A stretch of DNA of 57,821 bases. It comes from a virus. Lineage: Duplodnaviria; Caudoviricetes. The stretch covers positions 1-57,821 of IMG/VR virus record IMGVR_UViG_3300028571_002339; one strand, written 5' to 3'. Numbering within the stretch: the first letter of the stretch is position 1; each line of letters starts with the position of its first letter. A model generated the notes under the pieces. The model was given only the letters and a program-made list of their open reading frames with translations, ran no database searches and was not told where the DNA came from. Below are positions 25-57,814 of this stretch, piece after piece. Both the position numbers and the translations under genes were made by a program.

Positions 25-96
25 ACCAGCTCTGGATTTCGGCAATAAAAAAACTGCCTTGCGACAGTTTTTGAAAAATCAGAGAAGTAGGGATTC
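25..96. repeat. att-like direct repeat, left copy (exact core 44..96)
   Basis: Matches 57742..57814; identity stops inside the tRNA T-loop (GGATTC|TCTT vs GGATTC|GAACCC). Confidence 0.9.
49..72 (-). terminator. intrinsic terminator hairpin (copy of the tRNA terminator)
   Basis: AAAAACTG-ccttgcga-CAGTTTTT inverted repeat with A/T tails. Confidence 0.6.
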
Positions 97-147
97 TCTT
101 TAGGCGTTTGCGAAGTATGAGCATTACTATCACTTTCCAGTTAAATA

Positions 148-500
148 CAGAAATATGTAATTGAAAGCCAATCGCTGAAGTTTAGGCTGTGTCTTGATAT
201 TGAGGCGGTTCCGCTGTGTCCAGAAATATGGAATTGAAATTAACGGAATTGACGATTTCTTATCCGAAAAGTTGACGATTTTTCCTACGAAATCCTTGCC
301 AAGTGCTACATTCAGGCGACACGTCTATAACATCGGCATAGGAATTTTTGGTAATTTTTCAATTACATTTTATGTAATTGAAGCAAGTCTTCCCCCTTGG
401 TGGGAAATGTTTTTAAAACAACACCTTTGGCGTTTAAATATATAAATGCCGAAAGTAAAATTTTTTCTCCAAAAATGTAATTGAAACTTGAAATGTAATC
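148..500. repeat. cluster of ATGTAATTGAA motifs (direct and inverted)
   Basis: CAGAAATATG(T/G)AATTGAAA at 148-166 and 221-239; palindrome TTCAATTACAT-TTT-ATGTAATTGAA 358-382; ATGTAATTGAAA 475-486. Confidence 0.75.
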
Positions 501-634
501 CAAAATTATTTTTTGTTATTAATCTATAAAATTAAAAACATGTTTTTCAAATATACATACCTGGGTAATAGATTTTTATAAATTATTATGTATGATTAAA
601 ATAATGGATATAGAATAAATTGGGTAGAGGAAGT

Positions 635-1162
635 ATGTTATTTACAAAAAGTCGCTTAAAAACAGAACCGTCTGATTATATTATTAAAGCCTCAATCAAT
701 GAAAGTAAATATAAAACAAGTTTTGATGTTTTTCTTTCACATAGTTTTGATGATAAACCTTATATTTATGAACTAAAAAATATTTTAGAAGGTCATGGCT
801 TATCCGTATATGTAGATTGGTTGGTAGATGGATACTTGGATAGGAATAATGTAACGACTAAAACTGCTGAAATTCTAAGAACCAGAATGAAGCAATCAAA
901 AAGTTTATTGTATGCAACCTCAATAAATAGCAGTTCCTCAAAATGGATGCCTTGGGAATTGGGGTTTTTTGACGGATATAAAGGTAAAGTCGCAATAATA
1001 CCTATTGTTGAAAATTCTTATTCTAAATATGAAGGTCAAGAATATTTAGGATTATACCCTTATATAGATGAAGCCAAAATTCAAAATAGTGATAATATGG
1101 CTCTTTGGATAAATAAAGCAGATAATTCGTCTTATAATATTAGGAGTTGGGTTAATGGTTAA
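635..1162 (+). CDS. TIR domain protein (Thoeris ThsB-like)
   Basis: FDVFLSHS and WMPWELG (catalytic Glu) TIR motifs; ATG at 635 follows AGAGG RBS (ORF track starts at TTG 620). Confidence 0.85.
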   Translation: MLFTKSRLKTEPSDYIIKASINESKYKTSFDVFLSHSFDDKPYIYELKNILEGHGLSVYVDWLVDGYLDRNNVTTKTAEILRTRMKQSKSLLYATSINSSSSKWMPWELGFFDGYKGKVAIIPIVENSYSKYEGQEYLGLYPYIDEAKIQNSDNMALWINKADNSSYNIRSWVNG

Positions 1163-2534
1163 TGAATATTCTAGTGAAAAAACTGTTTTTGTTGCAATGC
1201 CCTTCGGTTATAAAAAGCCATTAAAAGGAACTTACCAGATTAATTTCGACAATATTTATGAAAAATCTATAAAATCTGCCGTTATAGAAATGGGATTAAA
1301 TATTATAAGAGCGGATGAAGAAAATAACGGCGGCATTATTCATACATTAATGTATGAACGCTTAGTATGCTCCGATATAGTTATTGTTGATATTACTAAT
1401 CAAAACCCAAATGTGTATTATGAACTTGGATTTAGGCATTGTGCAAAACCATATCATACGATTATTATTTATGATAAAAAGCATCAAATACCATTTGATA
1501 TAGCCCTACTCCGTGCAATCCCGTATGAACTCAAAAGAGGTGAAATACCTTTAGAAAGTGCAAATAAGTTAAAAGAAGAAATTAAAAAACGGATTGAATT
1601 AGCTTTAAATTATGATGACACAAACGATAGTCCGGCTTTTGAATTAATTAGTGATTTCCCAACAACAGTATTATCAGATGGAAATATTAAAATATTTAAA
1701 AATACATATTCATTATGCGAAAAATTAAAAGATGAATTGCAGTCTGCCTGCAATACAGAAGAAATAGGACAAATTTTAACAGAAATAGAAAAAAGCAGTA
1801 TCCCTATATATTATATAGCCTACGAAATTATAAAAAGCTATAAGCGATTAAAGGAATGGACGGCACTTATTAATTTTCTAAATTGCCATAAAGATTCCGA
1901 TTTAAAAGATTTTGTACATGTAAAACAGCAATTAGCATTGGCTCTTAATAAAAGAGGTCAAAATACGGATAGAGAAAACGCTATAAGAATTTTAGAAAAT
2001 ATTTTAAAAGATATTGGTGAATCATCTGAAACTTATGGCTTACTCGGCAGTATAAATAAAGAATTAATGTTAAAATCAACAACCACAATGCAGGTAGGAG
2101 CCTTTTTAGATAAATCTATTTCTAATTATCGCAGCGGCTTTTTGTATGATACAACTAATTATTATACAGGTATAAATCTTGCAACTTTATTACTATATAA
2201 AAATGATATAAAATCTTCAATCGAATTACAAAAAATCATTCCTGTTATTGTATATAACATAGAATTACAAGATTTTAGCATCAGCGCTGATTATTGGCTA
2301 CTAGCTACTGTTTATGAAATATATGTACATTGTTTAAGGTTTGATGATGCTAAAAATATTTTAAAGCATATTTTGTCAATGCAAAAGAAACCAGATAACT
2401 GGGAAATAGAATCAACATTGAAAAATTTAAAGCTAATTAAAGAAATTTATGAACAAAAAGAATTACCAACTGACTGGTACGAGATTTACGAAGATGAACT
2501 AAACACAAAGGAGGTTAAAAATGTCTTGGAATAG
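1155..2534 (+). CDS. deoxyribohydrolase/NDT-like domain + TPR (DUF4071, MAP3K TRAF-binding-like) protein
   Basis: VFVAMPFG...RADE...DITNQNPNVYYELG; C-terminal QLALALNKR, SETYGLLG, YYTGINLATLL, DYWLLAT helical repeats. Confidence 0.8.
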   Translation: MVNEYSSEKTVFVAMPFGYKKPLKGTYQINFDNIYEKSIKSAVIEMGLNIIRADEENNGGIIHTLMYERLVCSDIVIVDITNQNPNVYYELGFRHCAKPYHTIIIYDKKHQIPFDIALLRAIPYELKRGEIPLESANKLKEEIKKRIELALNYDDTNDSPAFELISDFPTTVLSDGNIKIFKNTYSLCEKLKDELQSACNTEEIGQILTEIEKSSIPIYYIAYEIIKSYKRLKEWTALINFLNCHKDSDLKDFVHVKQQLALALNKRGQNTDRENAIRILENILKDIGESSETYGLLGSINKELMLKSTTTMQVGAFLDKSISNYRSGFLYDTTNYYTGINLATLLLYKNDIKSSIELQKIIPVIVYNIELQDFSISADYWLLATVYEIYVHCLRFDDAKNILKHILSMQKKPDNWEIESTLKNLKLIKEIYEQKELPTDWYEIYEDELNTKEVKNVLE

Positions 2535-2943
2535 AAGAGTTTTTATTTCGCACTGTTGGAGCTACGATACAGCTTACAACACAATAAAAGGTTGGCTAGA
2601 TGATGCTCCATACTATACATTTACAGATGGCAGTATTACAACGGATAAAGCTTTAACTGGACTAACTGATGAACAATTAGCACAGGCGATAAAAGAGAGA
2701 ATCCGTCAATGTAGTATTTTTGTTGTTCCTACAGGAATGTACTGCAATGGTAGTGATTGGATAACTTTTGAAGTTAATACCGCTGCTGCAATGGGTAAAC
2801 CTATTTTAGCTGTTAAACCTTGGGGACAAGAAAAAAATGCAAAAATAGTCACTGATAATGCTACATTAATTGTTGGATGGAATTCATCAAGTGTAATTGA
2901 CGGTATAAAAAAACTTACATCTACAAGTTATATTAACAAATAA
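2521..2943 (+). CDS. TIR-like protein (MTH538/DUF1863, ThsB-like)
   Basis: RVFISHCWSY, WITFEV, KPILAVKPWG, VGWNSSS motifs. Confidence 0.85.
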   Translation: MSWNRRVFISHCWSYDTAYNTIKGWLDDAPYYTFTDGSITTDKALTGLTDEQLAQAIKERIRQCSIFVVPTGMYCNGSDWITFEVNTAAAMGKPILAVKPWGQEKNAKIVTDNATLIVGWNSSSVIDGIKKLTSTSYINK

Positions 2944-3022
2944 AGAACTTCCAATCTACACATTCCAACACATTTCCCTCAAAACAGTTCCATTGTAGGA
3001 AGTTTGGAGTGATTAATGTAGT

Positions 3023-5110
3023 ATGGAAAATATTTTAAAAACCTTTAATACGACTGACACTTGGCTTGATGTAGAGACTGTCGCAGCTCTTAAAAAGATA
3101 TCAAATAGAGCCGTAAGATTATCACTCAAAAAGAAAAACCCTGACGGGGTAAACAAGTACAATTATCAGACAGAAACCGTCAGAGGCGGAAGTGCATATA
3201 AGATTCAGCTATCCAGCCTTGAGGAAGAATATCAAATTAAGTACATCAAAGAATACTACGACAATTTGACCCTAGTCGATAATAAAATCGAACTACATAA
3301 TTTTCAGCCCAAACCTGAGAAAATAATATCAGAAGTTCAACGCAAAAAAGCACTTGCAAAATATGACCTGATAAAATTTTGGGAAGAATACAGAAAAAAT
3401 AAAAAAGACAATAATATCCCCAATAAAAACTCAGATAGAATGTTTTTGGAAAGCTACAATACAGGACTTTTGTATCCTGAGATTTTTGCTGTAATAAATA
3501 CAATCGGAATCGGCTCTCTTTATTCCTGGAAGAATGTAATTGATAAGAACTCGGATTGGACAGCACTTGTCGGCAATTACAAATATTCTTCAAACAAAGT
3601 TTACCGAACAAAATTAAAGGAAGAAGAAATAACGGTCTTTCTAAAAATACTTTTATCCCCAAATAGATTTTCGATAGGCAAGGCAATCGGCTTAACAAGG
3701 CATATTTTGGAAGAAAAGGGATTTGAAAATATGCCAAAAGAAGTGACCTTCAGGCGATATGCAAAGTGGTATAAATCTGCAAATTATGACAAATGGGTGC
3801 TCGCAAGAGAAGGTGCTAAAGCACTTAAGGACAGAGTGGAACCGTATATTGTCAGAGATATAAGCGTGCTTGAGCCTGGGCAGGTTTTAATTGCAGACGG
3901 ACACACCCTTAACTTCCAAGTGATAAATCCTTTCACAGGAAAACCTTGCCGTGCAACACTACTTGGATTCCTTGATTGGAAATCAGGCGGACTTGTTGGA
4001 TACGATATTATGCTTGAAGAGTGTACCCAAAGTATTTCTTCAGCACTAAGGAATGCAATTTTGCACATGGACCATATCCCGAGTTTTGTTTATCAGGATA
4101 ATGGCAGAGCTTTTAAGAGTAAATTTTTTAACGGCGATACGAAATTCGAAGAATTAGGATTTACAGGAGTTTATGAAAAATTGGGAATAAAACCTGTTTA
4201 TGCAACTCCATACAATGCTCGGGCAAAAGTCATCGAGCGTTTCTTTTTGGAATTTCAAGAAAGCTTTGAAAAACTGATACCAAGCTATATAGGGACAAGT
4301 ATTGAGAATAAACCAGCGTATATGAATCGCAATGAGAAGCTCCATAAGGTGATACACCAAGAAAAGGCTAACTTTATTCCGACTATTGAACAAGCATTAT
4401 CATTAGTCAGAGAGTGGTTAAACTTTAGACACTCCCAGCCTTGTCCGAATGTCCCTGGCAAATCAATTCAGGAAGTTTTGGACTTAATTCCAAAACAAAA
4501 TATTTGCGAAGAAACATTGGACGATTTAATGATGGCACAAGAGGTAAAACACATCGGCAGAAACGGTATAAGGTTCTTAAAATCCAATTATTTTAATGAC
4601 GAACTTTATGGTATCAGAGAAAAAGCGGTTATAAAATACAACCTGAGCGATTTAAGTTACATCAAAGTGTATTCAGTCAAAGGCGAATTTTTGTGCAGGG
4701 CTGACAGAGTTACTGCAACGCATCCACTTGCTTATCAAATGGGCGACATCAAGGATATTGAAGATTACAAACACAAAATCAAAAAGCAAAATCAACTTAG
4801 AAACAAAACAATGAAAGCCGTTAAGGAACATTTTGCACTTGAAGATATCGAACTTATTAAAACTAACCTTATTGAAAATACTTTGATTGATGACAATTCG
4901 GTAATAGAAGCCGACATTATCAAACCTGCAAAACCTGAAAAAGAAAAACTAACAGAAACTTATGTAAACAATAGACCTCGACCACTTTTTAAAGATAATT
5001 ACGAACGCTATGAGTGGCATATAAAAAATGGATGTGTCGGAGTTGACGATAGAAGGTGGTTTGAAGAGTACATAAAATCAGAGGAGTATAGAAATATATA
5101 TGCAGAATAA
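3023..5110 (+). CDS. Mu-type DDE transposase (second copy, A1)
   Basis: IADGH, QDNGRAF, KVIERFF DDE triad; Mu transposase C-terminal region (GRNGIRF). Confidence 0.9.
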   Translation: MENILKTFNTTDTWLDVETVAALKKISNRAVRLSLKKKNPDGVNKYNYQTETVRGGSAYKIQLSSLEEEYQIKYIKEYYDNLTLVDNKIELHNFQPKPEKIISEVQRKKALAKYDLIKFWEEYRKNKKDNNIPNKNSDRMFLESYNTGLLYPEIFAVINTIGIGSLYSWKNVIDKNSDWTALVGNYKYSSNKVYRTKLKEEEITVFLKILLSPNRFSIGKAIGLTRHILEEKGFENMPKEVTFRRYAKWYKSANYDKWVLAREGAKALKDRVEPYIVRDISVLEPGQVLIADGHTLNFQVINPFTGKPCRATLLGFLDWKSGGLVGYDIMLEECTQSISSALRNAILHMDHIPSFVYQDNGRAFKSKFFNGDTKFEELGFTGVYEKLGIKPVYATPYNARAKVIERFFLEFQESFEKLIPSYIGTSIENKPAYMNRNEKLHKVIHQEKANFIPTIEQALSLVREWLNFRHSQPCPNVPGKSIQEVLDLIPKQNICEETLDDLMMAQEVKHIGRNGIRFLKSNYFNDELYGIREKAVIKYNLSDLSYIKVYSVKGEFLCRADRVTATHPLAYQMGDIKDIEDYKHKIKKQNQLRNKTMKAVKEHFALEDIELIKTNLIENTLIDDNSVIEADIIKPAKPEKEKLTETYVNNRPRPLFKDNYERYEWHIKNGCVGVDDRRWFEEYIKSEEYRNIYAE

Positions 5111-5789
5111 ATTTATTAAAACACAGAATGTAAAACGCTTTATATCATTGATGGATAACCTACAAAAAGCACCGCCGAATGTTCCAAAGATAGCCCTCGT
5201 GCATGGCGAATTCGGGCTTGGAAAGTCGCAAGCGATAATGTGGTGGGTTACAAATAATGATGCCATTTATGTTCGCTGTAACCATAAAATGAGTAGCCGT
5301 TGGCTGTTATCCGAAATAGTAAAAGAGCTTGACGAAGAACCTTGCAGGCAATCTTCGCAACTGTTTAGACAAATCGAGGATAAATTAAAAGCAGAATCCA
5401 AGGTGATAGTGGTTGATGAGATTGATTATCTTTTTACAAATACGCATACAATCGAAATATTGAGGGACATACACGATAAATTGGGAGTGCCGATTTTGCT
5501 TGTTGGAATGGGTTTGTCAAACAGAAAACTTCTAAAATATGGGCATATTAACGACAGAATTTTTGCGAAATTGAAATTTGAAAAAATCGGCAAGGAAGAT
5601 TTTAAAGAAATTATCTCAACGCTATCAGAAGTTGAGTTTACCGCCGAGGCAATAAAATATATCGAGTCTCGAAATCTTCAGTTCCGCCAACTTGTGAAAC
5701 TTATTAATAGAGCAGAAAATCTTGCAGATACTAATAAACTTAATCAGATTGACGAAGTAATAGTGAGGGAGCTATTTGATGAAAAATAA
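5100..5789 (+). CDS. AAA+ ATPase, MuB/TnsC-like (B1)
   Basis: Walker A GEFGLGKS, Walker B IVVDE; coupled to the transposase. Confidence 0.9.
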   Translation: MQNKFIKTQNVKRFISLMDNLQKAPPNVPKIALVHGEFGLGKSQAIMWWVTNNDAIYVRCNHKMSSRWLLSEIVKELDEEPCRQSSQLFRQIEDKLKAESKVIVVDEIDYLFTNTHTIEILRDIHDKLGVPILLVGMGLSNRKLLKYGHINDRIFAKLKFEKIGKEDFKEIISTLSEVEFTAEAIKYIESRNLQFRQLVKLINRAENLADTNKLNQIDEVIVRELFDEK

Positions 5790-6456
5790 GGTTTTGAAAC
5801 TGGCAAAAAGACTTGGTAAATTTTCTGTCGAAGATATTTCACAGATTATTACTACCGATAAAAACCAATTGGAAGAAATTTTACAAGAATTATTATCTGA
5901 AAAATCTATACTTAAAAGAGCAGATAGCACTTATTTTCATCAAGAAAAGAGTAAAAAGAAAACATCAAAACTTCCGCTATTTTTTGAATTCAGGACAAAA
6001 GAAGAACTTGATTTAATAATTAAATGTTTTTGTGCCGAAGTTTCTGTTTCGAAAAGTGTAATGATATGCAGTATTTCAGAAAATGTAATCTCTACATTTA
6101 CCCAGTATTTTAGAAAAGTCATTTATGAAAACCAATTACTAGAATTAAATAATTACTTTGAAAATAATCCACAGCAATTCCGACTGAGAACTTTTTATGA
6201 AAAGCCAACTTATTTTTATTTTTATGAAAATAGATTGTTTGTAAGTGACAATGTCCTATTATCGCCTAACGGCTGCATTAATTTTAAACAAGACGAAATC
6301 AAAAAGTTTAAAATCCTCTATTGCAGAATTAAAAGAATATTGAGCCACAATACTAGGCGGATATTATTACATCATCATATTTCAGAGAGCCTGTGGCGAG
6401 ATTCTAAAAGCTTTGAAGAATTAGTCAATGATTTGCATCAATTGCTAACGGCTTGA
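5779..6456 (+). CDS. winged-helix protein with degenerate IS1595/ISXO2-like C-terminus; third gene of transposase module
   Basis: Overlaps the ATPase stop; N-terminal wHTH-like pattern; IIKCFCAEV and HHHISESLWR resemble IS1595 segments, but no clear DDE triad. Confidence 0.5.
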   Translation: MKNKVLKLAKRLGKFSVEDISQIITTDKNQLEEILQELLSEKSILKRADSTYFHQEKSKKKTSKLPLFFEFRTKEELDLIIKCFCAEVSVSKSVMICSISENVISTFTQYFRKVIYENQLLELNNYFENNPQQFRLRTFYEKPTYFYFYENRLFVSDNVLLSPNGCINFKQDEIKKFKILYCRIKRILSHNTRRILLHHHISESLWRDSKSFEELVNDLHQLLTA

Positions 6457-7322
6457 AAATCAAACTTGAGATTATCCTCTACAGGTTGTAATTCTTCATC
6501 ATCAAAAACATCTTCTTGTATTATTTTACGGCGTTCTGGAGGTTTATTGTACAACTTATAAATATCTAATGGGATACGCATTTTTTTATTGTACATAAGC
6601 AACATAGCTTCTGCATATCCAAGAGAACCTGCCCTTCGCTCATTTGCGGTTCTGGATAATTCTTTTATGGAATATCTGCACATTTTTTCTTTAAAAATAT
6701 CATCATTAAGTTCGTTCGCATAGGCTGCAATTAATTTAGATACTCCTTTTAATATATTTGCCGACAATGAATTGATATCGCCCTCCCAAGTTCCGATACA
6801 AAGCCTCAGAGTTCTATCGAGATTATGAAAACCGAATTTTTTGTGTATATATTCTAAAGTCGATATGGCACAAATTCCGCCAATAACCTTAGTTGAGGTG
6901 AGAAATAAGTCATATGATTCTACCAAATCCTTTATTATAAGCTGTTCATCATTTCCGGCTTCAACATTTGCCATAAAAATTTCGTACGAAGTTAAAGATT
7001 TTACGTACTTTTGTTGGTTGGCAAAAATATCCGCTTCTTCTTGATAATCTAATTCATCATATATCATGCACCATACAGGAGTTTCACGTGATTCTGAAAC
7101 AGTCGCTACAATTTCAATCGTATGCTGCCCATTAAAAACATAGTTTATACCATCTCTTCTACTAACTTTCACTGGATTTATCTGACACAAATCAAAATTT
7201 GCGACTGCACGTTTAACATGTGCTTCAGACAAATTACGCTGATATTCTTGATTTGATACCAGGTTTTTTATCGGGATTTGCTCAAAATGTACATTTGGAA
7301 TAAATTGACTATACTCTTCCAT
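6438..7322 (-). CDS. ParB/DGQHR-like protein (DUF6551-like)
   Basis: NQEYQR and VFNGQHT motifs. Confidence 0.7.
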   Translation of the reverse strand: MEEYSQFIPNVHFEQIPIKNLVSNQEYQRNLSEAHVKRAVANFDLCQINPVKVSRRDGINYVFNGQHTIEIVATVSESRETPVWCMIYDELDYQEEADIFANQQKYVKSLTSYEIFMANVEAGNDEQLIIKDLVESYDLFLTSTKVIGGICAISTLEYIHKKFGFHNLDRTLRLCIGTWEGDINSLSANILKGVSKLIAAYANELNDDIFKEKMCRYSIKELSRTANERRAGSLGYAEAMLLMYNKKMRIPLDIYKLYNKPPERRKIIQEDVFDDEELQPVEDNLKFDFQAVSN

Positions 7323-49828: not shown

Positions 49829-49848
49829 ATTCCGTTCCCGTCAATGAA

Positions 49849-49996: not shown

Positions 49997-50024
49997 ACAC
50001 CACATAAGGTTTATTAAGTTGTTT
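49997..50024 (-). other. dif-like tyrosine recombinase site 3 (inverted)
   Basis: ACACCACATAA-GGTTTA-TTAAGTTGTTT; reverse complement has the same TAAACC spacer; 21/24 identical to site 2. Confidence 0.75.
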
Positions 50025-50071
50025 TAATAATTAAGTTGTCTTAAGCTTTTAAAACCTTTGTTGATAAGGAG

Positions 50072-50614: not shown

Positions 50615-50689
50615 TTTTTCTCCTTATACTGTCCTGTACCTCCTAAAAAGCCACAGGCTCAAAATTAGAGAGTATTTGCTGTTGTATTA

Positions 50690-51001
50690 TTATTTAAGTC
50701 CAGTACGTTGTCTTGCAATTTTGTAAATATATCCTTCAGAAACTCCGCATACTTTTGCAAGCTCATAACGAGATTTTTTGGAACCGTCATAATGTTTTTT
50801 TATGTAGCGGATTTTGGCATTTGCTGCAGCTTTTTGAGGTATGGAAATGTTTATGCCTTGCAGTTCACACATCATCTTTACTGCTACTTCAAGGCTTATT
50901 AAATCGGCAACGATTCTTAAATCCTCATTTGGCAAATCATCTTTTGTTATTTCTTGAGCCCATGGTTGTTTAATTTCTAATTGTTCGTCCAAAATAACCA
51001 C
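50690..51001 (-). CDS. Mor/C-family transcription activator
   Basis: DLP...R.VADLI, G..ISIP, YDG....ELA...GVSE..IY. Confidence 0.8.
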   Translation of the reverse strand: MVILDEQLEIKQPWAQEITKDDLPNEDLRIVADLISLEVAVKMMCELQGINISIPQKAAANAKIRYIKKHYDGSKKSRYELAKVCGVSEGYIYKIARQRTGLK

Positions 51002-51089
51002 CTTTATTGAATATTAACGGTATTTAGTCTCATCAGTTGAGGTATTACCTCAAGACGAGAAGGTTGTTCTATTACCCTCTCGTTTCGAC

Positions 51090-51335
51090 TTATGCTGACA
51101 TTAATGCCATTTTACCTGCACTAATTAAAGGAATCTCCTTTATTATTTTTCTTAAAATTGCAATTTGAGCCTCTAGCATTTTGCAGGTCATTTTGCGTTC
51201 ATACTTACATTGCCAATCGTTTTCGTCAAGAGAACTGTTTGCAAAATCGATTTTGGCAGTTAATAAATCTGACTCTAAAGTTGCAATTTCTGTGTGCATC
51301 ATTTCTAAGACTACAAGTTGTCTGTTGGTTTCCAT
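51090..51335 (-). CDS. hypothetical phage protein
   Basis: ORF with AAGGAG RBS in the early operon. Confidence 0.65.
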   Translation of the reverse strand: METNRQLVVLEMMHTEIATLESDLLTAKIDFANSSLDENDWQCKYERKMTCKMLEAQIAILRKIIKEIPLISAGKMALMSA

Positions 51336-51375
51336 AATTTTTCTCCTTTTCTTTTTATCTACAATTAAAAGCCGT

Positions 51376-51810
51376 TTAAAGGGCTTTTAAATACTTTTTA
51401 ATTTTGATTTTTTCTAGAACTGCGATGATTTTTCCTGCTTTGATTTTTGTAATGAATCGAATATCCTCAAGGTGGAACTGTTTTTTGATGAATTTTCTCA
51501 GAGATTTTTTTGCAGAATCCTTGTCCGTAAATGTATGCATATCTTTCCATACAACTTCAATTTTTCTAAGCTGTGCCGGCGTTGCCATTGCATTGTCCCT
51601 GGATTTAAAATCATCGTATTTTTTATGACTATTTCCTTTGAGGCTGACTTTATCTTCAAGAATTTCTATAAATATCTGTGCTTCGGTTTCTGTAAGATTT
51701 TTAGAACTTCCGACACCAAAGCTTGCAAGCATATCTCTGTAAAGTTCCTCTTCCAATCCAAGGATATTTTTCAAAGTATGGATTTTTTTAATTTGAGTAA
51801 AATTGCTCAT
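51376..51810 (-). CDS. GemA/gp16-like protein (DUF1018)
   Basis: QIKKIH.LK..LGL.EE.YR.ML...GV.SSK.L; ATPAQLRKIE..W. Confidence 0.8.
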   Translation of the reverse strand: MSNFTQIKKIHTLKNILGLEEELYRDMLASFGVGSSKNLTETEAQIFIEILEDKVSLKGNSHKKYDDFKSRDNAMATPAQLRKIEVVWKDMHTFTDKDSAKKSLRKFIKKQFHLEDIRFITKIKAGKIIAVLEKIKIKKYLKAL

Positions 51811-51931
51811 AATAGCCCTCCGCTTGTAGTTTTCGACCTTGATGAATTCCGCACTGAACGCCTAAAATAAAAATTGCCAAAACTATCAGGGACATATATA
51901 GTATTTTTTCGCTTTTTGAATATTCTTCCAT
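51788..51931 (-). CDS. 47-aa membrane peptide (not in ORF track)
   Basis: Manual translation MEEYSKSEKILYMSLIVLAIFILGVQCGIHQGRKLQAEGYYEQFYSN*; GAGGGG RBS; fills the B-gemA gap. Confidence 0.55.
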   Translation of the reverse strand: MEEYSKSEKILYMSLIVLAIFILGVQCGIHQGRKLQAEGYYEQFYSN

Positions 51932-51938
51932 CTTACCC

Positions 51939-52817
51939 TCACACTATTATTTGGCTGATACTAGCCTGCAAAACATCCTCATTCACTTCCATATTGTTGA
52001 TTTCTGCAATACGGATTGCTCTGACCAACAGCTTGGTCAGAACTCTCGTATTACCTGAACAATATTCAGATAGGGTAGTATATATTGATTTGTAGTTAGG
52101 GAGGATGGAGGATATTATTGCTTTTTTGTCTTCTTCAACAAGTGAATTCAGGCGAATAGAGATGCCAACTCTTGAAAAAAGCTGTGCATATTGCCTTTTT
52201 TCACCTTTAAGGTTCATAATCAAACGAGGCATTCCGACAAGTAAAATTCCTACTTGTGCCTTGTCGTAAATTCTTCTCAAAAGCTCTAACGACTTATATG
52301 GCAGGTGTTCCGCTTCATCAATAATTATTAAACGACCCGAAGATTTTAGCTTATTAATTATGTCTAAAAACATTCCGTGGATTGTGCCACAACCGTCAAA
52401 GCCAAGTTTTTTATGAATTTCTGAGAATAAAACTTTTGGAGTGTAGCCCAAATCTGCTTCTACCAAAATTACATCGGTGTTATCAATTGCATATTTTTTG
52501 ACCGCATAAGTTTTGCCGATTCCTGCATCGCCACAGCAAACTCCGATTTCATTTTCAACGTGGCAGATTTTAGCGATGTCAAAAACATCATCAACAATAG
52601 TGGTTTTGACAAAATCAACCTTAATTCTGCCCTCTCTCAATTTTTCAATTTCAAGAAAATTTGCAACCGCATCATCAATCTTTTTCACGTTGCCTTTGTA
52701 ATTACTGTTCATCCACAGGTGCAAAGTCGCATTCGAAACGTTTATAGCCTTTGCAGCATATGCCACCGTATATTTTTTATTCTTTAATAATTCTTTTAAT
52801 TCTTCAATTAAACTCAT
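51939..52817 (-). CDS. MuB-like transposition ATPase (B2)
   Basis: N-terminal HTH, GDAGIGKT, LIIIDEAE, LRRIYD. Confidence 0.92.
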   Translation of the reverse strand: MSLIEELKELLKNKKYTVAYAAKAINVSNATLHLWMNSNYKGNVKKIDDAVANFLEIEKLREGRIKVDFVKTTIVDDVFDIAKICHVENEIGVCCGDAGIGKTYAVKKYAIDNTDVILVEADLGYTPKVLFSEIHKKLGFDGCGTIHGMFLDIINKLKSSGRLIIIDEAEHLPYKSLELLRRIYDKAQVGILLVGMPRLIMNLKGEKRQYAQLFSRVGISIRLNSLVEEDKKAIISSILPNYKSIYTTLSEYCSGNTRVLTKLLVRAIRIAEINNMEVNEDVLQASISQIIV

Positions 52818-52825
52818 TTTTCCTC

Positions 52826-54778
52826 CTACATAGCCCTTTTTGCAATATCACGCTTTTTCTCGGTTTCAGTGAGATACAGCTTCTGTTTTTCTTTTATTGG
52901 CGTGACATACTTTTCAGCCCTAAAAGTAGATTGTTTGTTGCTTTTAACAACCTTATCCATTTTGGTGTTTGTGATTTTTGAAATTTTAGGATTATTTTCA
53001 AAGTTTGTTTGGGGTAATCCGTTTTTCAAATTGTTCACAATCTCAGCATTTGTCGGGTTATACTTGCATTTGATGTATGATTTTAAAAGTTTCTTTTCTT
53101 TATTTTTAGCCTCAACTGCCTTTTTATACTGAGCTTTTTCAATATTTGTTTTTGCCATAAATGATACAGCTTGGTTGACATTCGCATTGCCCAAAAATTC
53201 TTCTGTAGCAGCATCAAATACCCAAGCTTCCTGATAGGCGTTTATATCTCTTCTCAGGTAAACTTTTGTGCCTTTTTTAGCAATCATCCACTCATCCCAA
53301 TATGTAAGCTGAAGCTGTGAATCATATATGCCGTTTCTGCCGATTGAAACATCTTTTGAAGTTCGCATACAGAAAAGTTTGAGAGCATCTTTGCTGATTA
53401 TTTTCTTTATAGAATACTCTTCAGACCACAATTCGTCAGGGCATTTGCCCTGCAAGACCTTACCGCTTGAGGGCATTTTATTCAGAACATTGAGGATAAA
53501 ATCGTCAAACAAGGTTTTGAAATCCTCAAAAGGCATAATTTGGTCGTTTTTGATTTCGGTTTTTAATTTCTCAGGTCTTTCGGTAATTTTTCCGCCACGG
53601 TAGCCGACCATATGCTTTGAAAGATATGTTTTTACTTTTAAAAAATCTCTTTCAATAGGCTTTGTTTGCGCGTTATATGGCAGAGCAAAATGTACATTTA
53701 TACCTAGATTTTTCAGTAAAGAATTTTCTTTGGATGAGTTGTGTAAAACTTTTATTGAACCACTTCTGCCACCTGCAAAATCTTTGCAGCGATAGTCTTT
53801 TCCGTTATCAAGATAAATATCAATCGGAAGCCCAAACAGCAAAACTCCGTAATAAAAAGCTTGAAAAATATGGTCAGAATTTGGACTTTCAGCGTGCAAA
53901 AACCATCCTAACCATTTTGAAGATTTAATATCTCTAAAAACTGTCACCCACGGAAAACATACGCTACCGTTAAAATTAACGGCAACGTCAATTTGTGCGT
54001 GATCCGAAACCCAAAAGCTTCCGGCAGTGATGTTTGAATAATCTCTTGGAATATATGAAGCATACTTTTTATTCCAAGCCGCTTCGCCGTATCTTGCAAG
54101 GTAAATAGCTTGCTCGGGGACATCTTTTCTTAACATTCTGATAAAAGATTTAGAACTTGGAAAGTTTTTAATATCAATATTACAGGTTTCTTTTGCAAAA
54201 CCTAATGTCATTATCCACGCTGATTGAGCTGATGGAGCACCTTCTTTCAAGTATAGACTTTTGAAATAGTCAAAATATTCAGTGTCTATTTTAAAGCAAC
54301 CTTTTCTGTGTCCATATTTACTCAGTAGTGCTTCAATGCCGTTCTTTTCATATTTCCTTTTTGCTTCCATCAAAGTAGAATAGGCCGTTTTCCGCTCAGG
54401 ATATTTTTCATTCCATTTTGCTATAAAATCTTGTGTTTCCTTGTATGTCAGTTTTTCTGTCAAAGTGAACAGCTCAAGATATTTTTCTGCTTGTTTTCTT
54501 GCCCACGCAGGGGCGTTTGAATATTCTTCTAACGAGCAACTAATCTCCACTACTGGTGTTAAAATGACTTCATTTTTGTTTTTTGATTTCAAATATGTTT
54601 TTTGAAGTTCATCTTTTAGCGAAGATAAAGCAACGTAATAATGTTTGAATTTGCCGATTTTTTTAAAAGTAGAAACAAGCTCGCCAGCTTTGCATTTGCG
54701 TCTGATAGTTTCCTTTTTATCGCCGGATAAATCGCAAACCTCTTCAATTGTTAGCCATATCTCTTTATCTTCTTGCAT
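52826..54778 (-). CDS. MuA-like DDE transposase (A2)
   Basis: WVSDH, YLDNGKDY, KPIERDF; N-terminal HTH; Mu C-terminal domain. Confidence 0.92.
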   Translation of the reverse strand: MQEDKEIWLTIEEVCDLSGDKKETIRRKCKAGELVSTFKKIGKFKHYYVALSSLKDELQKTYLKSKNKNEVILTPVVEISCSLEEYSNAPAWARKQAEKYLELFTLTEKLTYKETQDFIAKWNEKYPERKTAYSTLMEAKRKYEKNGIEALLSKYGHRKGCFKIDTEYFDYFKSLYLKEGAPSAQSAWIMTLGFAKETCNIDIKNFPSSKSFIRMLRKDVPEQAIYLARYGEAAWNKKYASYIPRDYSNITAGSFWVSDHAQIDVAVNFNGSVCFPWVTVFRDIKSSKWLGWFLHAESPNSDHIFQAFYYGVLLFGLPIDIYLDNGKDYRCKDFAGGRSGSIKVLHNSSKENSLLKNLGINVHFALPYNAQTKPIERDFLKVKTYLSKHMVGYRGGKITERPEKLKTEIKNDQIMPFEDFKTLFDDFILNVLNKMPSSGKVLQGKCPDELWSEEYSIKKIISKDALKLFCMRTSKDVSIGRNGIYDSQLQLTYWDEWMIAKKGTKVYLRRDINAYQEAWVFDAATEEFLGNANVNQAVSFMAKTNIEKAQYKKAVEAKNKEKKLLKSYIKCKYNPTNAEIVNNLKNGLPQTNFENNPKISKITNTKMDKVVKSNKQSTFRAEKYVTPIKEKQKLYLTETEKKRDIAKRAM

Positions 54779-54977
54779 TGAACTTCGCTCCGTTTAAATC
54801 ATCAAGATAGACATTGTCTTTTAGCCAGTTATCAAATTTTTCATTAGTTCTTTGTCCTGAAATTAGCATACTGATGTAGCTTTCAGAAAAGCCTAAAATA
54901 TTTGCAGCTTCACGTTGGGTTACACCAATTCTCATAAGAGCTATTTTATATTTCATACTGATAAAATTTTTACTCAT
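54765..54977 (-). CDS. Ner/Cro-like HTH regulator
   Basis: GVTQREAANILGFSESYISMLISG; divergent from the repressor. Confidence 0.8.
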   Translation of the reverse strand: MSKNFISMKYKIALMRIGVTQREAANILGFSESYISMLISGQRTNEKFDNWLKDNVYLDDLNGAKFNARR

Positions 54978-55059
54978 TTCCCCTACTCGATTTTTCTTAC
55001 TGCACGATATTGCATAGAGTATGACAAATTGTGCGGGCGGTCAAGGGAAATTGCTAAAC

Positions 55060-55208
55060 TGTGAAACTCTTTACAGAAAGATGGGAGAAGCTAAACCCCT
55101 CAAAATTAATAATTATCTCGTGTTGACACATTGTGCAATAGTTAAGAATTATTACACGATACTTCATAGAAGGGTTGAAGTTTTGTGCGAGTTGTGAAAT
55201 ACTTTACA
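55060..55208. promoter_or_regulatory. two candidate operators in the immunity region
   Basis: TGTGAAACTCTTTACA (55060-75) and TGTGAAATACTTTACA (55193-208), quasi-palindromic. Confidence 0.55.
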
Positions 55209-55226
55209 ATGAAAAGGAATGTGTAA

Positions 55227-55925
55227 ATGTCAAACTTACAATCAAGAATTAAAAAAGTTAGAACTGAACATGGCATGTCAGTGGAAGAAGTTGCTAAAAA
55301 ACTTGCAGAAAACGGCATTAAAATTTCTGCTAGGACTATCTATTCCTATGAATTAAACGAAAGACAGCCGAGTGTTATGTACCTGCAAGCACTTGTCGAC
55401 TATTTAGAAGTTAATCCCGAGTGGCTTTTAAGCGGCAGGGGCGAAGTTTTTCCGTCAGAAACATCCGCAACCGATATGCCTGCACATGTTGATTTATCGC
55501 AAATGGTGTTTTTGCCATTAATAAATATGGCAGCATCCGCAGGATATGGAGCATTGATTGAAGAACGGGAAATGACAAAAGATTTCATTGCTTTTGCCAA
55601 AAAATGGCTGACTGATATAACAGTTACATCACCGAAGCATCTTTTAGCTTTTACGGTTAAAGGGAATTCGATGGCAGGCGAAATCAATGACGGGGACTTG
55701 ATTATTGTGAATGATACAATGAATGATTTAGCCAATGACGGAACTTATGTCGTAAGTATTGACGATAAATTATATGTTAAACTCCTGCAAAGAATTCCAG
55801 GAAACAAAGTTCAGGTCGTAAGCAAAAACCAAGAATACTCACCTTTCACCGTAGACTTGAAAACCGAGCACTTCAAAATTATTGGCAAAGTTATTTGGTC
55901 TGGTGGAAAAAAGGATAGGTATTGA
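55227..55925 (+). CDS. CI-like repressor (XRE HTH + S24 peptidase)
   Basis: HTH, ASAGYG cleavage site, VKGNSM (Ser), YVKLL (Lys). Confidence 0.93.
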   Translation: MSNLQSRIKKVRTEHGMSVEEVAKKLAENGIKISARTIYSYELNERQPSVMYLQALVDYLEVNPEWLLSGRGEVFPSETSATDMPAHVDLSQMVFLPLINMAASAGYGALIEEREMTKDFIAFAKKWLTDITVTSPKHLLAFTVKGNSMAGEINDGDLIIVNDTMNDLANDGTYVVSIDDKLYVKLLQRIPGNKVQVVSKNQEYSPFTVDLKTEHFKIIGKVIWSGGKKDRY

Positions 55926-55953
55926 TAAATATAAAAGGTTCTAAGGAGTTGGA

Positions 55954-56469
55954 ATGTTATTAGAAAAAGATAAATTTTTTGAATGGGCATACAGTGATTT
56001 ACTTATAAACAGCCAAAGAGGACACCTTGCCGAATATATTGTAGCGGTTGCTCTAGGACTCACCGGACAAAAAAGGCAGGAGTGGGACCCCTATGATTTG
56101 GAATACGGCAATATAAAAATTGAAGTTAAAAGTGCTGCATATATTCAAGGTTGGGAGCAAAATAAACACTCTGTTATTGGTTTTGATATTAAGCCAACAA
56201 GATTCTTAAACCTTGATAACAATAGATATGAAGATGAAGATAAAAGACAGTCAGATGTATATGTATTTTGTCATTTAAAACACAAAGATAGAGAAACTAT
56301 AAATCCTGCGGATGTGACTCAATGGGATTTTTATATTGCATCAACCGAAACTTTAAACGAAAGATTGAAGGAGCAAAAAAGAGTTTCTCTTTCTGTTCTG
56401 AAGACTATTTGCAGTAATAAAATTTGTTTTGAAAATATAAAAGAAGAAATTGACAAGATTGGAAATTAA
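55954..56469 (+). CDS. PD-(D/E)XK-like nuclease, putative defence protein
   Basis: RGHLAEYIV, YDL, IEVKSAAY, DVYVF. Confidence 0.65.
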   Translation: MLLEKDKFFEWAYSDLLINSQRGHLAEYIVAVALGLTGQKRQEWDPYDLEYGNIKIEVKSAAYIQGWEQNKHSVIGFDIKPTRFLNLDNNRYEDEDKRQSDVYVFCHLKHKDRETINPADVTQWDFYIASTETLNERLKEQKRVSLSVLKTICSNKICFENIKEEIDKIGN

Positions 56470-56483
56470 ATAATAACGCTAAA

Positions 56484-57575
56484 ATGTTACTAAAAAATAT
56501 AATAAAAAGCATAAAAAATATGGTACTAAACAAATGCAGGCTTTCAGTAGAGAATCTGCCATATAAGCATATAAACAGAGAAGATATGATATTCTCTGAT
56601 AAAACTTTATGCATTATCGGGAATGGATTTGATTTAGCACACGGCGTAAAATCTAGCTACTATGATTTTAGAAAGTTTTTAGGTGAAAATTCAGATTTGC
56701 GAGAAATAATGGAAGCATATATCAGCAAACCTGACATATGGGGGGACTTTGAAAACAGCTTGGCGCATCTAGATAGAGAAATGTTGATAAATGACATTGA
56801 CGATACCCTTAATGATTTTAATGTTAAAGATGACGATGAGGATGATTTTTCTGCTGCTGATTATCATCTAGCTATTGAGTGTGCGGCGATGCCGGCTATA
56901 ATGATTGAACAGGAGCTTCCTGTAAAATTTAGACAATGGATAAATAAGTTACCAGCCGTAAACAATTCAAATCCTTTAAAACAAATCATAAATACAAATG
57001 CAAGATTTATAAACTTTAACTATACTGAATTTCTTGAAACCATTTACGGGGTTGAACATAAAAATATTTTATATATACATGGATGCCGAAAAAATAAAAA
57101 AGAAGAGTTAGTTCTAGGTCATGGTTATAATACTGAGAAATTATACGAGGAATGGTACGATGAGAACAAGTCAAGATGTGTATCGGAAAATAATCCAACA
57201 AAATTGGCATATTTTGCTGATGATGATGAGAATCTTGATGAATACAAAAGCCCCATTAGATATTATGCAATACAAGAAGCTCTAGGGCTAATTGAAGAAT
57301 ATTATGACAATTCTGCAAAGAAAACAGAAGACGTATTAAAGCAAAATAAGACCTACTTTGAAACTTTATATGATATTGAAAAAATACTAGTAGTAGGACA
57401 TTCCTTATCCCTAGCGGATTATTCATATTTTAAAGAAATTATTAATAGCAATATTAATAAAGAAGATTTATTGTGGCAAATTAGTTATTATAATAATGAA
57501 GACTTAAAAAGAATTGGCGTTTTTCTAGATAATATGAACATAAAATCAAAACAAGTTACTTTGTTTCACATATAG
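56484..57575 (+). CDS. AbiH-family abortive infection protein (SIR2-like fold)
   Basis: IIGNGFDLAHG, W.DFE, NFNYT, IHG, VGHSL..D..YF. Confidence 0.85.
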   Translation: MLLKNIIKSIKNMVLNKCRLSVENLPYKHINREDMIFSDKTLCIIGNGFDLAHGVKSSYYDFRKFLGENSDLREIMEAYISKPDIWGDFENSLAHLDREMLINDIDDTLNDFNVKDDDEDDFSAADYHLAIECAAMPAIMIEQELPVKFRQWINKLPAVNNSNPLKQIINTNARFINFNYTEFLETIYGVEHKNILYIHGCRKNKKEELVLGHGYNTEKLYEEWYDENKSRCVSENNPTKLAYFADDDENLDEYKSPIRYYAIQEALGLIEEYYDNSAKKTEDVLKQNKTYFETLYDIEKILVVGHSLSLADYSYFKEIINSNINKEDLLWQISYYNNEDLKRIGVFLDNMNIKSKQVTLFHI

Positions 57576-57741
57576 AAAAAGTTTTGCTTTTTTTAATTAT
57601 CTTTCAAAAAATAAAACTTCCGACTCTTAAAAATTTAATTCTAAAATTTATGGTTTTATGTGTCAGACATTATGGATTTAAGTGTCCAATTATAATTACG
57701 CCTAAGGATACCCGAACGGGTAGAACCCGTAGGGTGAGAAA

Positions 57742-57814
57742 ACCAGCTTTGGATTTCGGGTAATAAAAAAACTGCCTTGCGACAGTTTTTGAAAAATCAG
57801 AGAAGTAGGGATTC
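57742..57814. repeat. att-like direct repeat, right copy (exact core 57762..57814)
   Basis: Matches 25..96. Confidence 0.9.
57767..57790 (-). terminator. tRNA terminator hairpin
   Basis: AAAAACTG-N8-CAGTTTTT just 3' of the tRNA. Confidence 0.6.

What the first reader, a model, noticed from the sequence alone, without database searches (positions are those of the whole stretch)
44..57814. Mu-like prophage inside a tRNA att duplication, with no canonical integrase
Seen: a 53-bp exact direct repeat whose identity starts inside the tRNA T-loop, and no full-length integrase near either end. Known: Mu-type phages insert by transposition with 5-bp duplications, whereas T-loop crossovers are typical of tyrosine integrases. 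The only recombinases here are two DDE transposases, one internal serine recombinase and a 180-aa tyrosine recombinase without an arm-binding domain. Inference: either this is a hybrid that integrates site-specifically but replicates by transposition, or a Mu-like phage landed in an older island.
Basis: partly seen in the sequence, partly recalled or inferred. Interest (0 to 1): 0.7.

Follow-up and report, generated by a model that had tools for sequence, protein, structure and literature searches.

The report
Mu-like prophage transposed beside tRNA-Ser
The 57.6-kb Mu-like prophage got here by ordinary transposition, with a 5-base target duplication, into a short gap between two older copies of a tRNA-end repeat, and its relatives also nearly always sit just downstream of tRNA or other small stable RNA genes.

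Summary
The repeat is real: 53 nt exact, 73 nt at 96%, ending in the T-loop of a tRNA-Ser(GCT) that the window end cuts. It is not the phage's att.

The mobile unit is 128-57694. It has degenerate inverted ends and is flanked by a 5-nt duplication, ATTAC. Two metagenome contigs overlap the window ends by exactly 127 nt and stop at these junctions. Contigs of one sequencing run include an empty allele that joins 127 directly to 57700. That allele still carries both repeat copies, only 73 nt apart. Depths are about 44 (empty) plus 20 (occupied), against a host depth of about 60.

So a Mu-like myovirus transposed into an old att-like scar. No integrase is needed. The large serine recombinase and the 180-aa tyrosine recombinase lie in variable cargo regions.

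An unexpected pattern appeared in the relatives:
- 82 of 401 genomes of this host order carry them.
- 22 of 39 regions upstream of the transposase hold tRNA genes: 24 tRNAs, all co-oriented with it.
- One tmRNA and one SRP RNA gene are also co-oriented.
- Where phage ends could be read, they lie about 36-180 nt past the RNA gene.
- The family carries two MuA/MuB pairs and a conserved winged-helix protein.

Targeting of stable-RNA genes by a transposable phage would be new. Its mechanism is inferred only.

The parts
25..96 (.). Left copy of the 73-nt repeat: host DNA with a terminator hairpin and the last ~18 nt of tRNA-Ser. It is present in the empty allele too.
   Evidence: L037 (host contig) ends with window 1-127; the 53-nt repeat unitig has depth 102.6 against a host depth of ~60
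97..127 (.). Host spacer, left part. 97-107 (TCTTTAGGCGT) is an inverted repeat of 57698-57708. 123-127 (ATTAC) is the left copy of the target-site duplication.
   Evidence: run X1 record 4 covers 67-127 at depth 55.5, and the loose end at 127 runs on as window 57700-57724
128..57694 (.). The transposable Mu-like prophage, 57,567 nt. It is absent as one block from the empty allele.
128..520 (+). Phage end next to the MuA1 module. The terminus TATCACTTTCCAGTTAAATACAG matches 17 of the first 25 nt of the other end read inwards. Five copies of ATGTAATTGAA lie at 155-485.
   Evidence: the homologous end with the same motif lies beside the MuA1 homologue in G002
620..2943 (+). Defence-like cargo: ThsB-type TIR protein (620-1162), TPR-S/MAP3K_TRAF_bd protein (1155-2534), second ThsB-type TIR protein (2521-2943). 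G002 lacks it.
3023..6456 (+). Second transposition module: MuA1 (3023-5110, phrog_310, Mu-transpos_C), MuB1 (5100-5789, phrog_296, AAA_22/TniB) and orf226 (5776-6456), which has an N-terminal winged helix and otherwise belongs to no known family.
6438..11581 (-). Variable block absent from G002 and not found in the stretch of G151 examined: DUF6551/ParB-like protein, three unknown ORFs, large serine recombinase (9266-11167), HTH regulator (11243-11581).
11824..32005 (-). Late genes: protease, major head protein, adaptor, sheath, head closure, tape measure, baseplate, tail fibres, endolysin and conserved unknown genes. A Gp49-type toxin/antidote pair sits at 25971-26632 on the + strand.
32257..39177 (+). 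Packaging and head module on the opposite strand: small and large terminase, portal, MuF-like minor head protein, two DNA methyltransferases, Neck1.
   Evidence: the same divergent layout occurs in all relatives seen
39192..50614 (-). Variable cargo at 26-30% G+C: ABC exporter, FkbM methyltransferase, radical SAM, SIS-CBS isomerase, nucleotidyltransferase-kinase and unknown ORFs, followed by the 180-aa tyrosine recombinase (50072-50614). The 92%-identical relatives carry other DNA here.
50690..54778 (-). Mu-type early region: Mor-like activator, two small genes, MuB2 (51939-52817, phrog_296), MuA2 (52826-54778; DDE_2, HTH_Tnp_Mu_2, Mu-transpos_C, phrog_310).
55227..55925 (+). CI-type repressor (HTH plus S24 peptidase).
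55954..57575 (+). Cargo between the repressor and the phage end: unknown orf171, and AbiH (56484-57575). Each close relative has different genes here.
57576..57694 (-). Phage end nearest the tRNA. Read inwards it begins TATAATTGGACAC..., the terminus conserved in relatives (TATAA.T.GACA).
57695..57741 (.). Host spacer, right part. 57695-57699 (ATTAC) is the right copy of the target-site duplication.
   Evidence: L036 starts exactly at 57695; loose end
57742..57814 (.). Right copy of the repeat, continuous with the tRNA gene.
57797..57821 (-). 3' part of tRNA-Ser(GCT). The gene runs on beyond the window.
   Evidence: L036 103-191, minus strand

Best explanation
Bases 128-57694 are one Mu-like transposable myovirus prophage. 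It entered by DDE transposition with a 5-bp target duplication (ATTAC), 103 nt downstream of tRNA-Ser(GCT). The target was a 73-nt spacer between two copies of a 73-nt block (tRNA 3' end plus terminator) that already existed in the host.

That block is most likely a scar of earlier tyrosine-integrase traffic at this tRNA; this step is inferred. It plays no part in the phage's integration. The serine and tyrosine recombinases are cargo or nested elements inside the phage.

Shown: the junctions, the duplication, the empty allele, the gene content and the synteny with relatives. Inferred: which of the two MuA/MuB pairs made the insertion, and that the phage is still active.
For: 1. L037 ends with window 1-127 and L036 starts with window 57695-57821. 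Both overlaps are exact and 127 nt long, the kind of overlap that neighbouring edges of a k=127 assembly graph have. The host sequence therefore branches exactly at 127/128 and 57694/57695.

2. ATTAC stands at 123-127 and again at 57695-57699. The ends read inwards match at 17 of the first 25 nt.

3. In run X1 a 55-nt contig (depth 43.7) covers 98-127 and runs on as GCCTAAGGATACCCGAACGGGTAGA, which is window 57700-57724. That is the empty site. The phage contig has depth 19.6, the host flanks 59.9 and 60.1, and the 53-nt repeat 102.6. 43.7 + 19.6 is about the host depth, and both repeat copies are present at host depth.

4. The tRNA-proximal terminus TATAATTGGACAC recurs at the ends of relatives, each with a different flank: L004, L005, G002 and L040, L041, L045, L049, L053.

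5. Gene content is Mu-type:
- MuA2 has DDE_2, HTH_Tnp_Mu_2 and Mu-transpos_C.
- Both A proteins match phrog_310 over their full length (3.7e-89 and 1.1e-86).
- Both B proteins match phrog_296.
- There is a CI-type repressor, a Mor-like activator, a MuF-like protein and myovirus tail genes.

6. G002:C11 and three IMG/VR records are syntenic but lack the TIR genes, the serine recombinase block, the cargo with the tyrosine recombinase, and AbiH.

7. TA-TA ends are reported for other transposable prophages (PMC8705779, passages read).
Against: - X1 may be the sample the window was assembled from, and it is held as contigs, not raw reads. It is a second assembly of possibly the same data, not an independent sample.
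- I could not confirm a 5-bp duplication in any relative. Attempts on G002, G151 and two copies in G022 failed because the far end could not be placed.
- The termini are TA...TA, not the classical TG...CA.
- At 57.6 kb the element is far larger than Mu (36-39 kb as stated in PMC8705779). Whether it can be packaged is unknown.
- Phage depth is below host depth, so the data show no replication.
Confidence: 0.87

Rival explanations
1. Hybrid phage. The element integrates by site-specific recombination between a phage attP and the tRNA-Ser attB, catalysed by the 180-aa tyrosine recombinase or the large serine recombinase. This creates the 53-bp repeat. The Mu-type genes serve only for replication.
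For: The repeat ends in the T-loop, as tyrosine-integrase crossovers typically do (the link to integrases is from my knowledge of the field). Two recombinases are encoded. The short recombinase belongs to a conserved family: 120 of the 120 best hits listed are 179-197 aa.
Against: The empty allele keeps both repeat copies at host depth and lacks exactly 128-57694 plus one ATTAC. Neither recombinase was found by tblastn in the syntenic relatives G002, G403, G404 and G405. Neither gene is near an end. Serine integrases do not make long duplications (from my knowledge).
Confidence: 0.03
2. Simple nesting in a sizeable older island. Part of the 57.6 kb, for example the TIR genes, the MuA1 module, the serine recombinase block or AbiH, belongs to an island that integrated at the tRNA. 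A smaller Mu-like phage then sits inside it.
For: Defence genes sit at both extremes and the G+C content is heterogeneous. Phages with similar head and early genes in G022 span only about 35-36 kb between the points where two copies stop matching.
Against: The empty allele has 73 nt between the repeats, so everything from 128 to 57694 came or went as one piece. The MuA1 module at the far end is conserved in G002 and G151. The outer ends are inverted repeats of each other.
Confidence: 0.05
3. Assembly artefact. The repeat reflects a circular or concatemeric phage genome or a chimeric join.
For: The repeat lies close to both ends of the record.
Against: The copies are not at the very ends, and they differ by two substitutions and one indel outside the exact core. 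The flanks continue into 12.5 kb and 2.4 kb of host DNA in L037 and L036, the latter with a complete tRNA gene. A second assembly shows the same junctions.
Confidence: 0.02

Closest known systems
Phage Mu and other transposable phages (D3112/B3-type saltoviruses, Leptospira transposable prophages)
   Same: It has a MuA-type DDE transposase with a MuB-type ATPase, a repressor next to one end, a Mor-like activator, MuF/portal head genes and a contractile tail, and a 5-bp target duplication. TA-TA ends are described for some Leptospira prophages (PMC8705779, passages read).
   Different: - There are two A/B pairs, about 25% identical for A.
- The genome is 57.6 kb with about 21 kb of cargo.
- The head module lies on the opposite strand.
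- Family members sit next to stable-RNA genes in one orientation. Mu-type phages are described as integrating near-randomly, with hotspots near hairpin-forming repeats in some Pseudomonas phages (PMC5977238, passages read).
Tn7-like transposons and CRISPR-associated transposons that home to tRNA genes (CAST I-B2, I-D, V-K)
   Same: Insertion is orientation-specific and a few tens of nt downstream of a tRNA gene. The transposase is of the MuA/TnsB superfamily with an AAA+ partner. MuB1's best solved relative is ShCAST TnsC (2.8e-7). In many relatives the layout is RNA gene, then element end, then A, B and a third protein. TnsD-dependent homing 30-33 nt past a tRNA is shown for CAST I-D (PMC10293859, passages read).
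   Different: No TniQ/TnsD, TnsA or Cas gene was recognised. Both A and B proteins fall in the phage families phrog_310 and phrog_296. Many different tRNAs, a tmRNA and an SRP RNA are used, at variable distance (about 36-180 nt). The element is a complete phage.
tRNA-integrating prophages and genomic islands with tyrosine integrases
   Same: A direct repeat made of the tRNA 3' end from the T-loop onward, downstream of an intact tRNA.
   Different: Here the repeat predates the phage and persists without it. No integrase sits at the ends, and the insertion has its own 5-bp duplication.
Retrotransposons of yeast and Dictyostelium that target RNA polymerase III genes (Ty3, TRE elements); recalled, no call
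   Same: Mobile elements that sit next to tRNA and other small stable RNA genes as safe havens.
   Different: These are eukaryotic and RNA-mediated, and they are tethered to Pol III factors that bacteria lack. This is only an analogy.

Membership tests
Mu-like transposable phage | MuA-type DDE transposase | tested here: met
   52826-54778: DDE_2 3e-8, HTH_Tnp_Mu_2 2.3e-6, Mu-transpos_C 4.9e-6; phrog_310 1.1e-86. 3023-5110: Mu-transpos_C 2.2e-12, phrog_310 3.7e-89.
Mu-like transposable phage | MuB-type AAA+ target activator next to the transposase | tested here: met
   51939-52817: phrog_296 3.4e-75. 5100-5789: phrog_296 3.4e-45; solved MuB 3.6e-5.
Mu-like transposable phage | 5-bp target-site duplication flanking the prophage | tested here: met
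   ATTAC at 123-127 and 57695-57699, and single in the empty allele. Not confirmed in relatives.
Mu-like transposable phage | Terminal 5'-TG...CA-3' with inverted transposase-binding sites | tested here: not met
   The ends are TA...TA (TATCAC... / ...AATTATA) with 17 of 25 inverted matches. Relatives show TGTA or TATA termini by my reading. TA-TA variants are in print.
Mu-like transposable phage | Replicative transposition and virions carrying variable host DNA at their ends | not testable with these tools
   Only contigs were available. Phage depth of 19.6 is below the host depth of ~60.
Mu-like transposable phage | Near-random choice of integration site | tested here: not met
   22 of 39 upstream regions hold tRNA genes: 24 tRNAs, all on the transposase strand. 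A co-oriented tmRNA and SRP RNA add to this.
tRNA-integrating tyrosine-integrase prophage or island | The att repeat is created by integration, so the empty site has one copy | tested here: not met
   The empty allele has both copies. Repeat unitig depth is 102.6 against a host depth of ~60, and the spacer 67-127 is at 55.5.
tRNA-integrating tyrosine-integrase prophage or island | Full-length integrase gene next to an att site | tested here: not met
   The end-proximal genes are TIR proteins and AbiH. The only tyrosine recombinase is 7 kb from the nearer end and has the catalytic domain only.
Tn7-like / CAST tRNA-homing transposon | TniQ/TnsD target selector | tested here: inconclusive
   For orf226: no Pfam family in any of its 21 aligned members at a meaningful E-value; no PDB sequence match; no Foldseek match at E<=0.001. 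VIA-align matched only residues 1-60, as a winged helix (Z about 10). The C-terminal domain was not searched on its own.
Tn7-like / CAST tRNA-homing transposon | TnsB/TnsC-type core rather than phage A/B | tested here: inconclusive
   MuB1 scores slightly better against ShTnsC (2.8e-7) than against MuB (3.6e-5). MuA2 ties between ShTnsB and MuA. PHROGs place both pairs in the phage families.
Tn7-like / CAST tRNA-homing transposon | One fixed orientation, a short distance downstream of the target gene | tested here: met
   24 of 24 tRNAs, the tmRNA and the SRP RNA are co-oriented. By my reading, the ends lie about 36-180 nt beyond the RNA gene.
Large serine recombinase (phage-type integrase) | Resolvase catalytic domain, Recombinase domain and a long C-terminal part | tested here: met
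   9266-11167, 633 aa: Resolvase 4.4e-24, Recombinase 1.9e-22; phrog_95 2.1e-86. Its att sites were not sought.

The most novel reading that the evidence does not exclude
This phage belongs to a large family of transposable phages of Gastranaerophilales-type hosts. The family aims its integration at the 3' flank of stable-RNA genes (many tRNAs, tmRNA, SRP RNA) in a fixed orientation, and it carries two diverged MuA/MuB pairs.

One pair, together with the conserved winged-helix protein orf226, would do safe-site lysogenic integration in the manner of Tn7. The other pair would do replicative transposition. That would be a phage solution to site-specific lysogeny without an integrase, and a bacterial counterpart of Pol III-gene targeting by retrotransposons.
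Probability: 0.4. Interest if true: 0.85.

Novelty: new variant of a known kind. Interest (0 to 1): 0.6.

Why it matters
For the finding as posed, the puzzle dissolves. A tRNA-type att repeat around a prophage does not prove integrase-mediated integration. Here assembly-graph overlaps and an empty allele show that the repeat is older than the phage.

The wider pattern matters more. Transposable phages are textbook near-random integrators. A family that reliably lands just past tRNA, tmRNA and SRP RNA genes, always facing the same way, and that keeps two transposase/ATPase pairs, would point to a target-selection mechanism not described for Mu-type phages. It would be a natural link between Mu and Tn7-like targeted transposition, and a possible source of orientation-specific DNA insertion machinery.

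It also shows how much defence and surface-modification cargo such phages carry at module junctions.

Tried and rejected
Searches that found nothing useful:
- Megablast of 14400-39200 against annotated phages gave no match.
- The exact att core occurs in 0 stretches of viral contigs.
- Window 1-96 matched in 0 of 5 relatives' genomes. In 401 genomes of the order, 19 had hits, but only G028 matches the att core (81% over 44-96). I judged the rest to be short AT-rich matches.

Phage ends:
- blastn-short between the right end and the rest of the window found no inverted repeat. The inverted ends are too degenerate and were seen only once the junctions were known.
- ATGTAATTGAA is not enriched window-wide: 9 matches against 4.98 expected, and 8 of 100 shuffles reach 9. 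Only its clustering at 155-485 and its conservation in G002 are informative.
- My first guesses for G002's ends, TGCCTAA at 2163 and 66059, were dropped when the conserved terminus turned up at 7206.
- Target duplications could not be found in G002, G151 or G022.

The repeat: outside the ~76-nt block the two host stretches share nothing above chance (336 of 500 shuffles score as high). It is therefore not part of a longer tandem duplication.

orf226: Pfam, PDB sequence search, Foldseek and NCBIfam gave nothing. The Atlas returned its own unnamed cluster of 1372 members.

Other points:
- Runs X2-X4 hold only small, diverged parts of 1-3000, so I draw nothing from them about habitat or about this site.
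- Literature searches listed no paper on tRNA-directed Mu-like phages or on phages with two MuA/MuB pairs. This covers only the held library. Supplements were not read.

Full report
**The observation**

The direct repeat is real. The repeat finder gives 41-96 vs 57759-57814, 56 nt with one mismatch. A gapped alignment extends it to 25-96 vs 57742-57814, 73 columns at 95.9%. The 53 exact bases are 44-96 and 57762-57814.

ARAGORN sees no tRNA in the window, because the window stops 7 nt past the repeat, inside the gene. Metagenome contig L036 begins with window 57695-57821 and carries the complete tRNA-Ser(GCT) at window 57797-57885 on the minus strand. The repeat therefore runs from inside the T-loop through the tRNA's last ~18 nt, its terminator hairpin and about 20 nt more.

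**Gene content**

| Coordinates | Strand | Content |
|---|---|---|
| 620-2943 | + | Two ThsB-type TIR proteins around a TPR-S protein |
| 3023-6456 | + | Transposase MuA1, ATPase MuB1, orf226 |
| 6438-11581 | - | Block with a 633-aa large serine recombinase |
| 11.8-32.0 kb | - | Myovirus late genes |
| 32.3-39.2 kb | + | Terminase, portal, MuF-like protein, two methyltransferases, Neck1 |
| 39.2-49.7 kb | - | Cargo at 26-30% G+C (ABC exporter, FkbM, radical SAM, SIS-CBS, nucleotidyltransferase-kinase) |
| 50072-50614 | - | 180-aa tyrosine recombinase |
| 50.7-54.8 kb | - | Mor-like activator, MuB2, MuA2 |
| 55227-55925 | + | CI/S24 repressor |
| 55954-57575 | + | orf171 and AbiH |

The short tyrosine recombinase is a conserved short family, not a fragment: all 120 best hits listed are 179-197 aa.

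**Where the element really ends**

A pattern fitting both repeat copies found two metagenome contigs. L037 is the end of a 65-kb contig. Its last 127 nt equal window 1-127, and the 128th base does not match. L036 is the start of a 30-kb contig. Its first 127 nt equal window 57695-57821.

Exact 127-nt overlaps at both ends are what adjacent edges of a k=127 assembly graph look like. The host sequence therefore forks exactly after 127 and before 57695. The five bases before the first fork and after the second are the same, ATTAC. Read inwards, the two ends are TATCACTTTCCAGTTAAATACAG... and TATAATTGGACACTTAAATCCAT..., which match at 17 of the first 25 nt.

**The empty site**

I laid the contigs of four coded runs on window 1-3000. 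In X1, which may be the source sample, a 55-nt contig of depth 43.7 covers 98-127 and continues GCCTAAGGATACCCGAACGGGTAGA. That is window 57700-57724.

| Piece in X1 | Depth |
|---|---|
| Empty-site contig | 43.7 |
| Phage-bearing contig (98-3000) | 19.6 |
| Host flanks | 59.9 and 60.1 |
| Spacer 67-127 | 55.5 |
| Collapsed 53-nt repeat | 102.6 |

About two thirds of the host population thus lack the phage. In them both repeat copies are present, 73 nt apart, with a single ATTAC. The repeat predates the phage and is not its att.

The insertion point lies at the edge of a small hairpin: 97-107 pairs with 57698-57708 at 10 of 11 positions (read). A related genome, G028, has the same tRNA with an 81% match to the core and a shorter second copy of the tRNA end about 90 nt downstream. 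Such scars are therefore older than this insertion. That they come from integrase traffic is my inference. Outside the ~76-nt block the flanks share nothing above chance.

**Relatives**

MuA2 homologues brought in five genome loci and three IMG/VR records that are about 92% identical in DNA.

- G002:C11 is syntenic from the repressor to the MuA1 module. That module again sits at the far end, reading inward, next to the same ATGTAATTGAA-type sites.
- None of these relatives gave a tblastn hit for the TIR genes, the serine recombinase block, the cargo with the tyrosine recombinase, or AbiH. Each has other DNA at the same junctions.
- The conserved terminus TATAA.T.GACA marks the repressor-side end in L004, L005 and G002, and in L040, L041, L045, L049 and L053. 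The flanks differ in each.

**An unexpected regularity**

MuA2 homologues occur in 82 of 401 sampled genomes of the order. I fetched up to 8 kb upstream of 40 of the 107 listed places. These were the best-scoring ones not yet examined, and I skipped some where the hit lay at a contig edge. One region of 113 nt was dropped, and seven of the remaining 39 are shorter than 2.8 kb.

ARAGORN found tRNA genes in 8 of 19 and 14 of 20 regions. That is 24 tRNAs, all on the transposase strand and none on the other. The identities are:

- Met (6)
- Ser-CGA (6)
- Gln (3)
- Ala (2)
- Arg (2)
- Ser-GGA (1)
- Phe (1)
- a Pro-Gly-His cluster

Outside this set, the window has Ser-GCT, L004 has Ser-TGA, and G005:C36 has Asp.

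Rfam, run on 12 of the regions, adds a co-oriented tmRNA (L076) and a co-oriented SRP RNA (L048). Other fetched DNA, 281,625 nt and much of it prophage interior, holds 4 tRNAs, against 24 in 273,037 nt.

By my reading of the sequences, the phage ends (TGTA... or TATA...) start about 36-180 nt past the RNA gene, usually just after its terminator. In G022 the same phage end lies downstream of both tRNA-Arg and tRNA-Met. So one phage type can use different tRNAs.

Eight long regions show no known RNA gene, so the bias is strong but not absolute. Some of the repeated tRNA types may be inherited insertions. At least 13 distinct target genes are involved.

**Two transposition modules**

In 23 of the 39 regions, plus 3 cut ones, the order is RNA gene, then phage end, then MuA1, MuB1 and orf226, then sometimes the repressor, then MuA2 and MuB2. 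In the window's subgroup the MuA1 module sits at the other end, inverted.

- Both A proteins fall in phrog_310 and both B proteins in phrog_296, so both pairs are phage-type.
- MuB1 scores slightly better against ShCAST TnsC than against MuB.
- orf226 folds confidently (pLDDT 92). It has an N-terminal winged helix (Z about 10). No match was found for the rest, but its C-terminal domain was not searched alone.
- A TniQ-like selector is therefore neither shown nor excluded.

**What is known**

- Mu-type phages are described as near-random integrators with 5-6-bp duplications (PMC8705779, passages read).
- Some Pseudomonas saltoviruses have hotspots near hairpin-forming repeats (PMC5977238, passages read).
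- Tn7-like CASTs home 30-33 nt past tRNA genes through TnsD (PMC10293859, passages read).
- Four library searches listed nothing on tRNA-directed Mu-like phages or on double A/B pairs. This holds for that library only.

**Verdict**

The att-recombination hybrid is refuted. The phage transposed as one 57.6-kb unit into an old tRNA-end scar.

The family's placement beside stable-RNA genes and its duplicated transposition machinery are the parts worth following up. Whether that placement reflects targeting or survival of harmless insertions is open.

Noticed in passing
620-2943: A Thoeris-like cluster without a recognised ThsA: two ThsB-type TIR proteins (PADLOC 3.2e-61 and 1.7e-15) flank a 459-aa TPR-S/MAP3K_TRAF_bd protein. 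It sits between the phage end sites and MuA1, and G002 lacks it.
   Followed up: partly
39192-49721: A 10.5-kb low-G+C cargo that looks like a surface-glycan or secreted-product pathway. Its ABC exporter is 71% identical, and its FkbM protein 34% identical, to genes about 6 kb beyond the prophage's MuA1 gene in G151:C3 (66.8-69.8 kb). That suggests capture of host DNA.
   Followed up: partly
6438-11581: A block with a large serine recombinase, a DUF6551/ParB-like protein and an HTH regulator. It occupies the gap between orf226 and the last late genes. G002 has about 1 kb of other sequence there. It is probably a nested integrative element. Its att sites were not sought.
   Followed up: no
25971-26632: A Gp49-type toxin plus HTH antidote pair on the opposite strand, between the tail tube region and the tape-measure chaperone region. 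G403 gave no hit for either gene. G404 and G405 have only a weak antidote-like hit.
   Followed up: no
50072-50614: The 180-aa catalytic-domain-only tyrosine recombinase belongs to a very large, well conserved family of 179-197-aa proteins (64-97% identity among the 120 best hits). Source names place members in Helicobacter and Gastranaerophilales. Its substrate is unknown.
   Followed up: partly
L066 (flipped) ~36-130 nt past tRNA-Ser(CGA): The terminal ~45 nt of the phage end (TGTACTTTAACAGGAC...) is present twice in tandem next to the tRNA.
   Followed up: no
L070, L072, L004, L073; window 57719-57729: Short T-arm-like hairpins (GGATTCGAACCC, GGGATGAGAACCC, GGGTAGAACCC) lie between the RNA gene's terminator and the phage end in several loci. 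They could be older att scars or part of what is recognised.
   Followed up: no
G022:C2 14.0-48.8 kb and G022:C1 31.7-68.0 kb: One genome holds two related phages of only about 35-36 kb, measured from the tRNA-side end to where the two copies stop matching just after Neck1. One lies beside tRNA-Arg, the other beside tRNA-Met. In this group the early A2 block lies between the MuA1 module and the late genes, unlike in the window.
   Followed up: partly
36022-37146 and 37929-38741: Two DNA methyltransferase genes are embedded in the head module on either side of the MuF-like gene. They are conserved at 97-99% in the close relatives, though one is missing in G405.
   Followed up: no
L024 (G001:C1) 8.8-13.9 kb: Another arrangement: late genes orf84 and phrog_10108 diverge from MuA1-MuB1-orf226, and a tRNA-Ser(CGA) and a tRNA-Gln follow on the opposite strand about 400 nt after orf226.
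   Followed up: no
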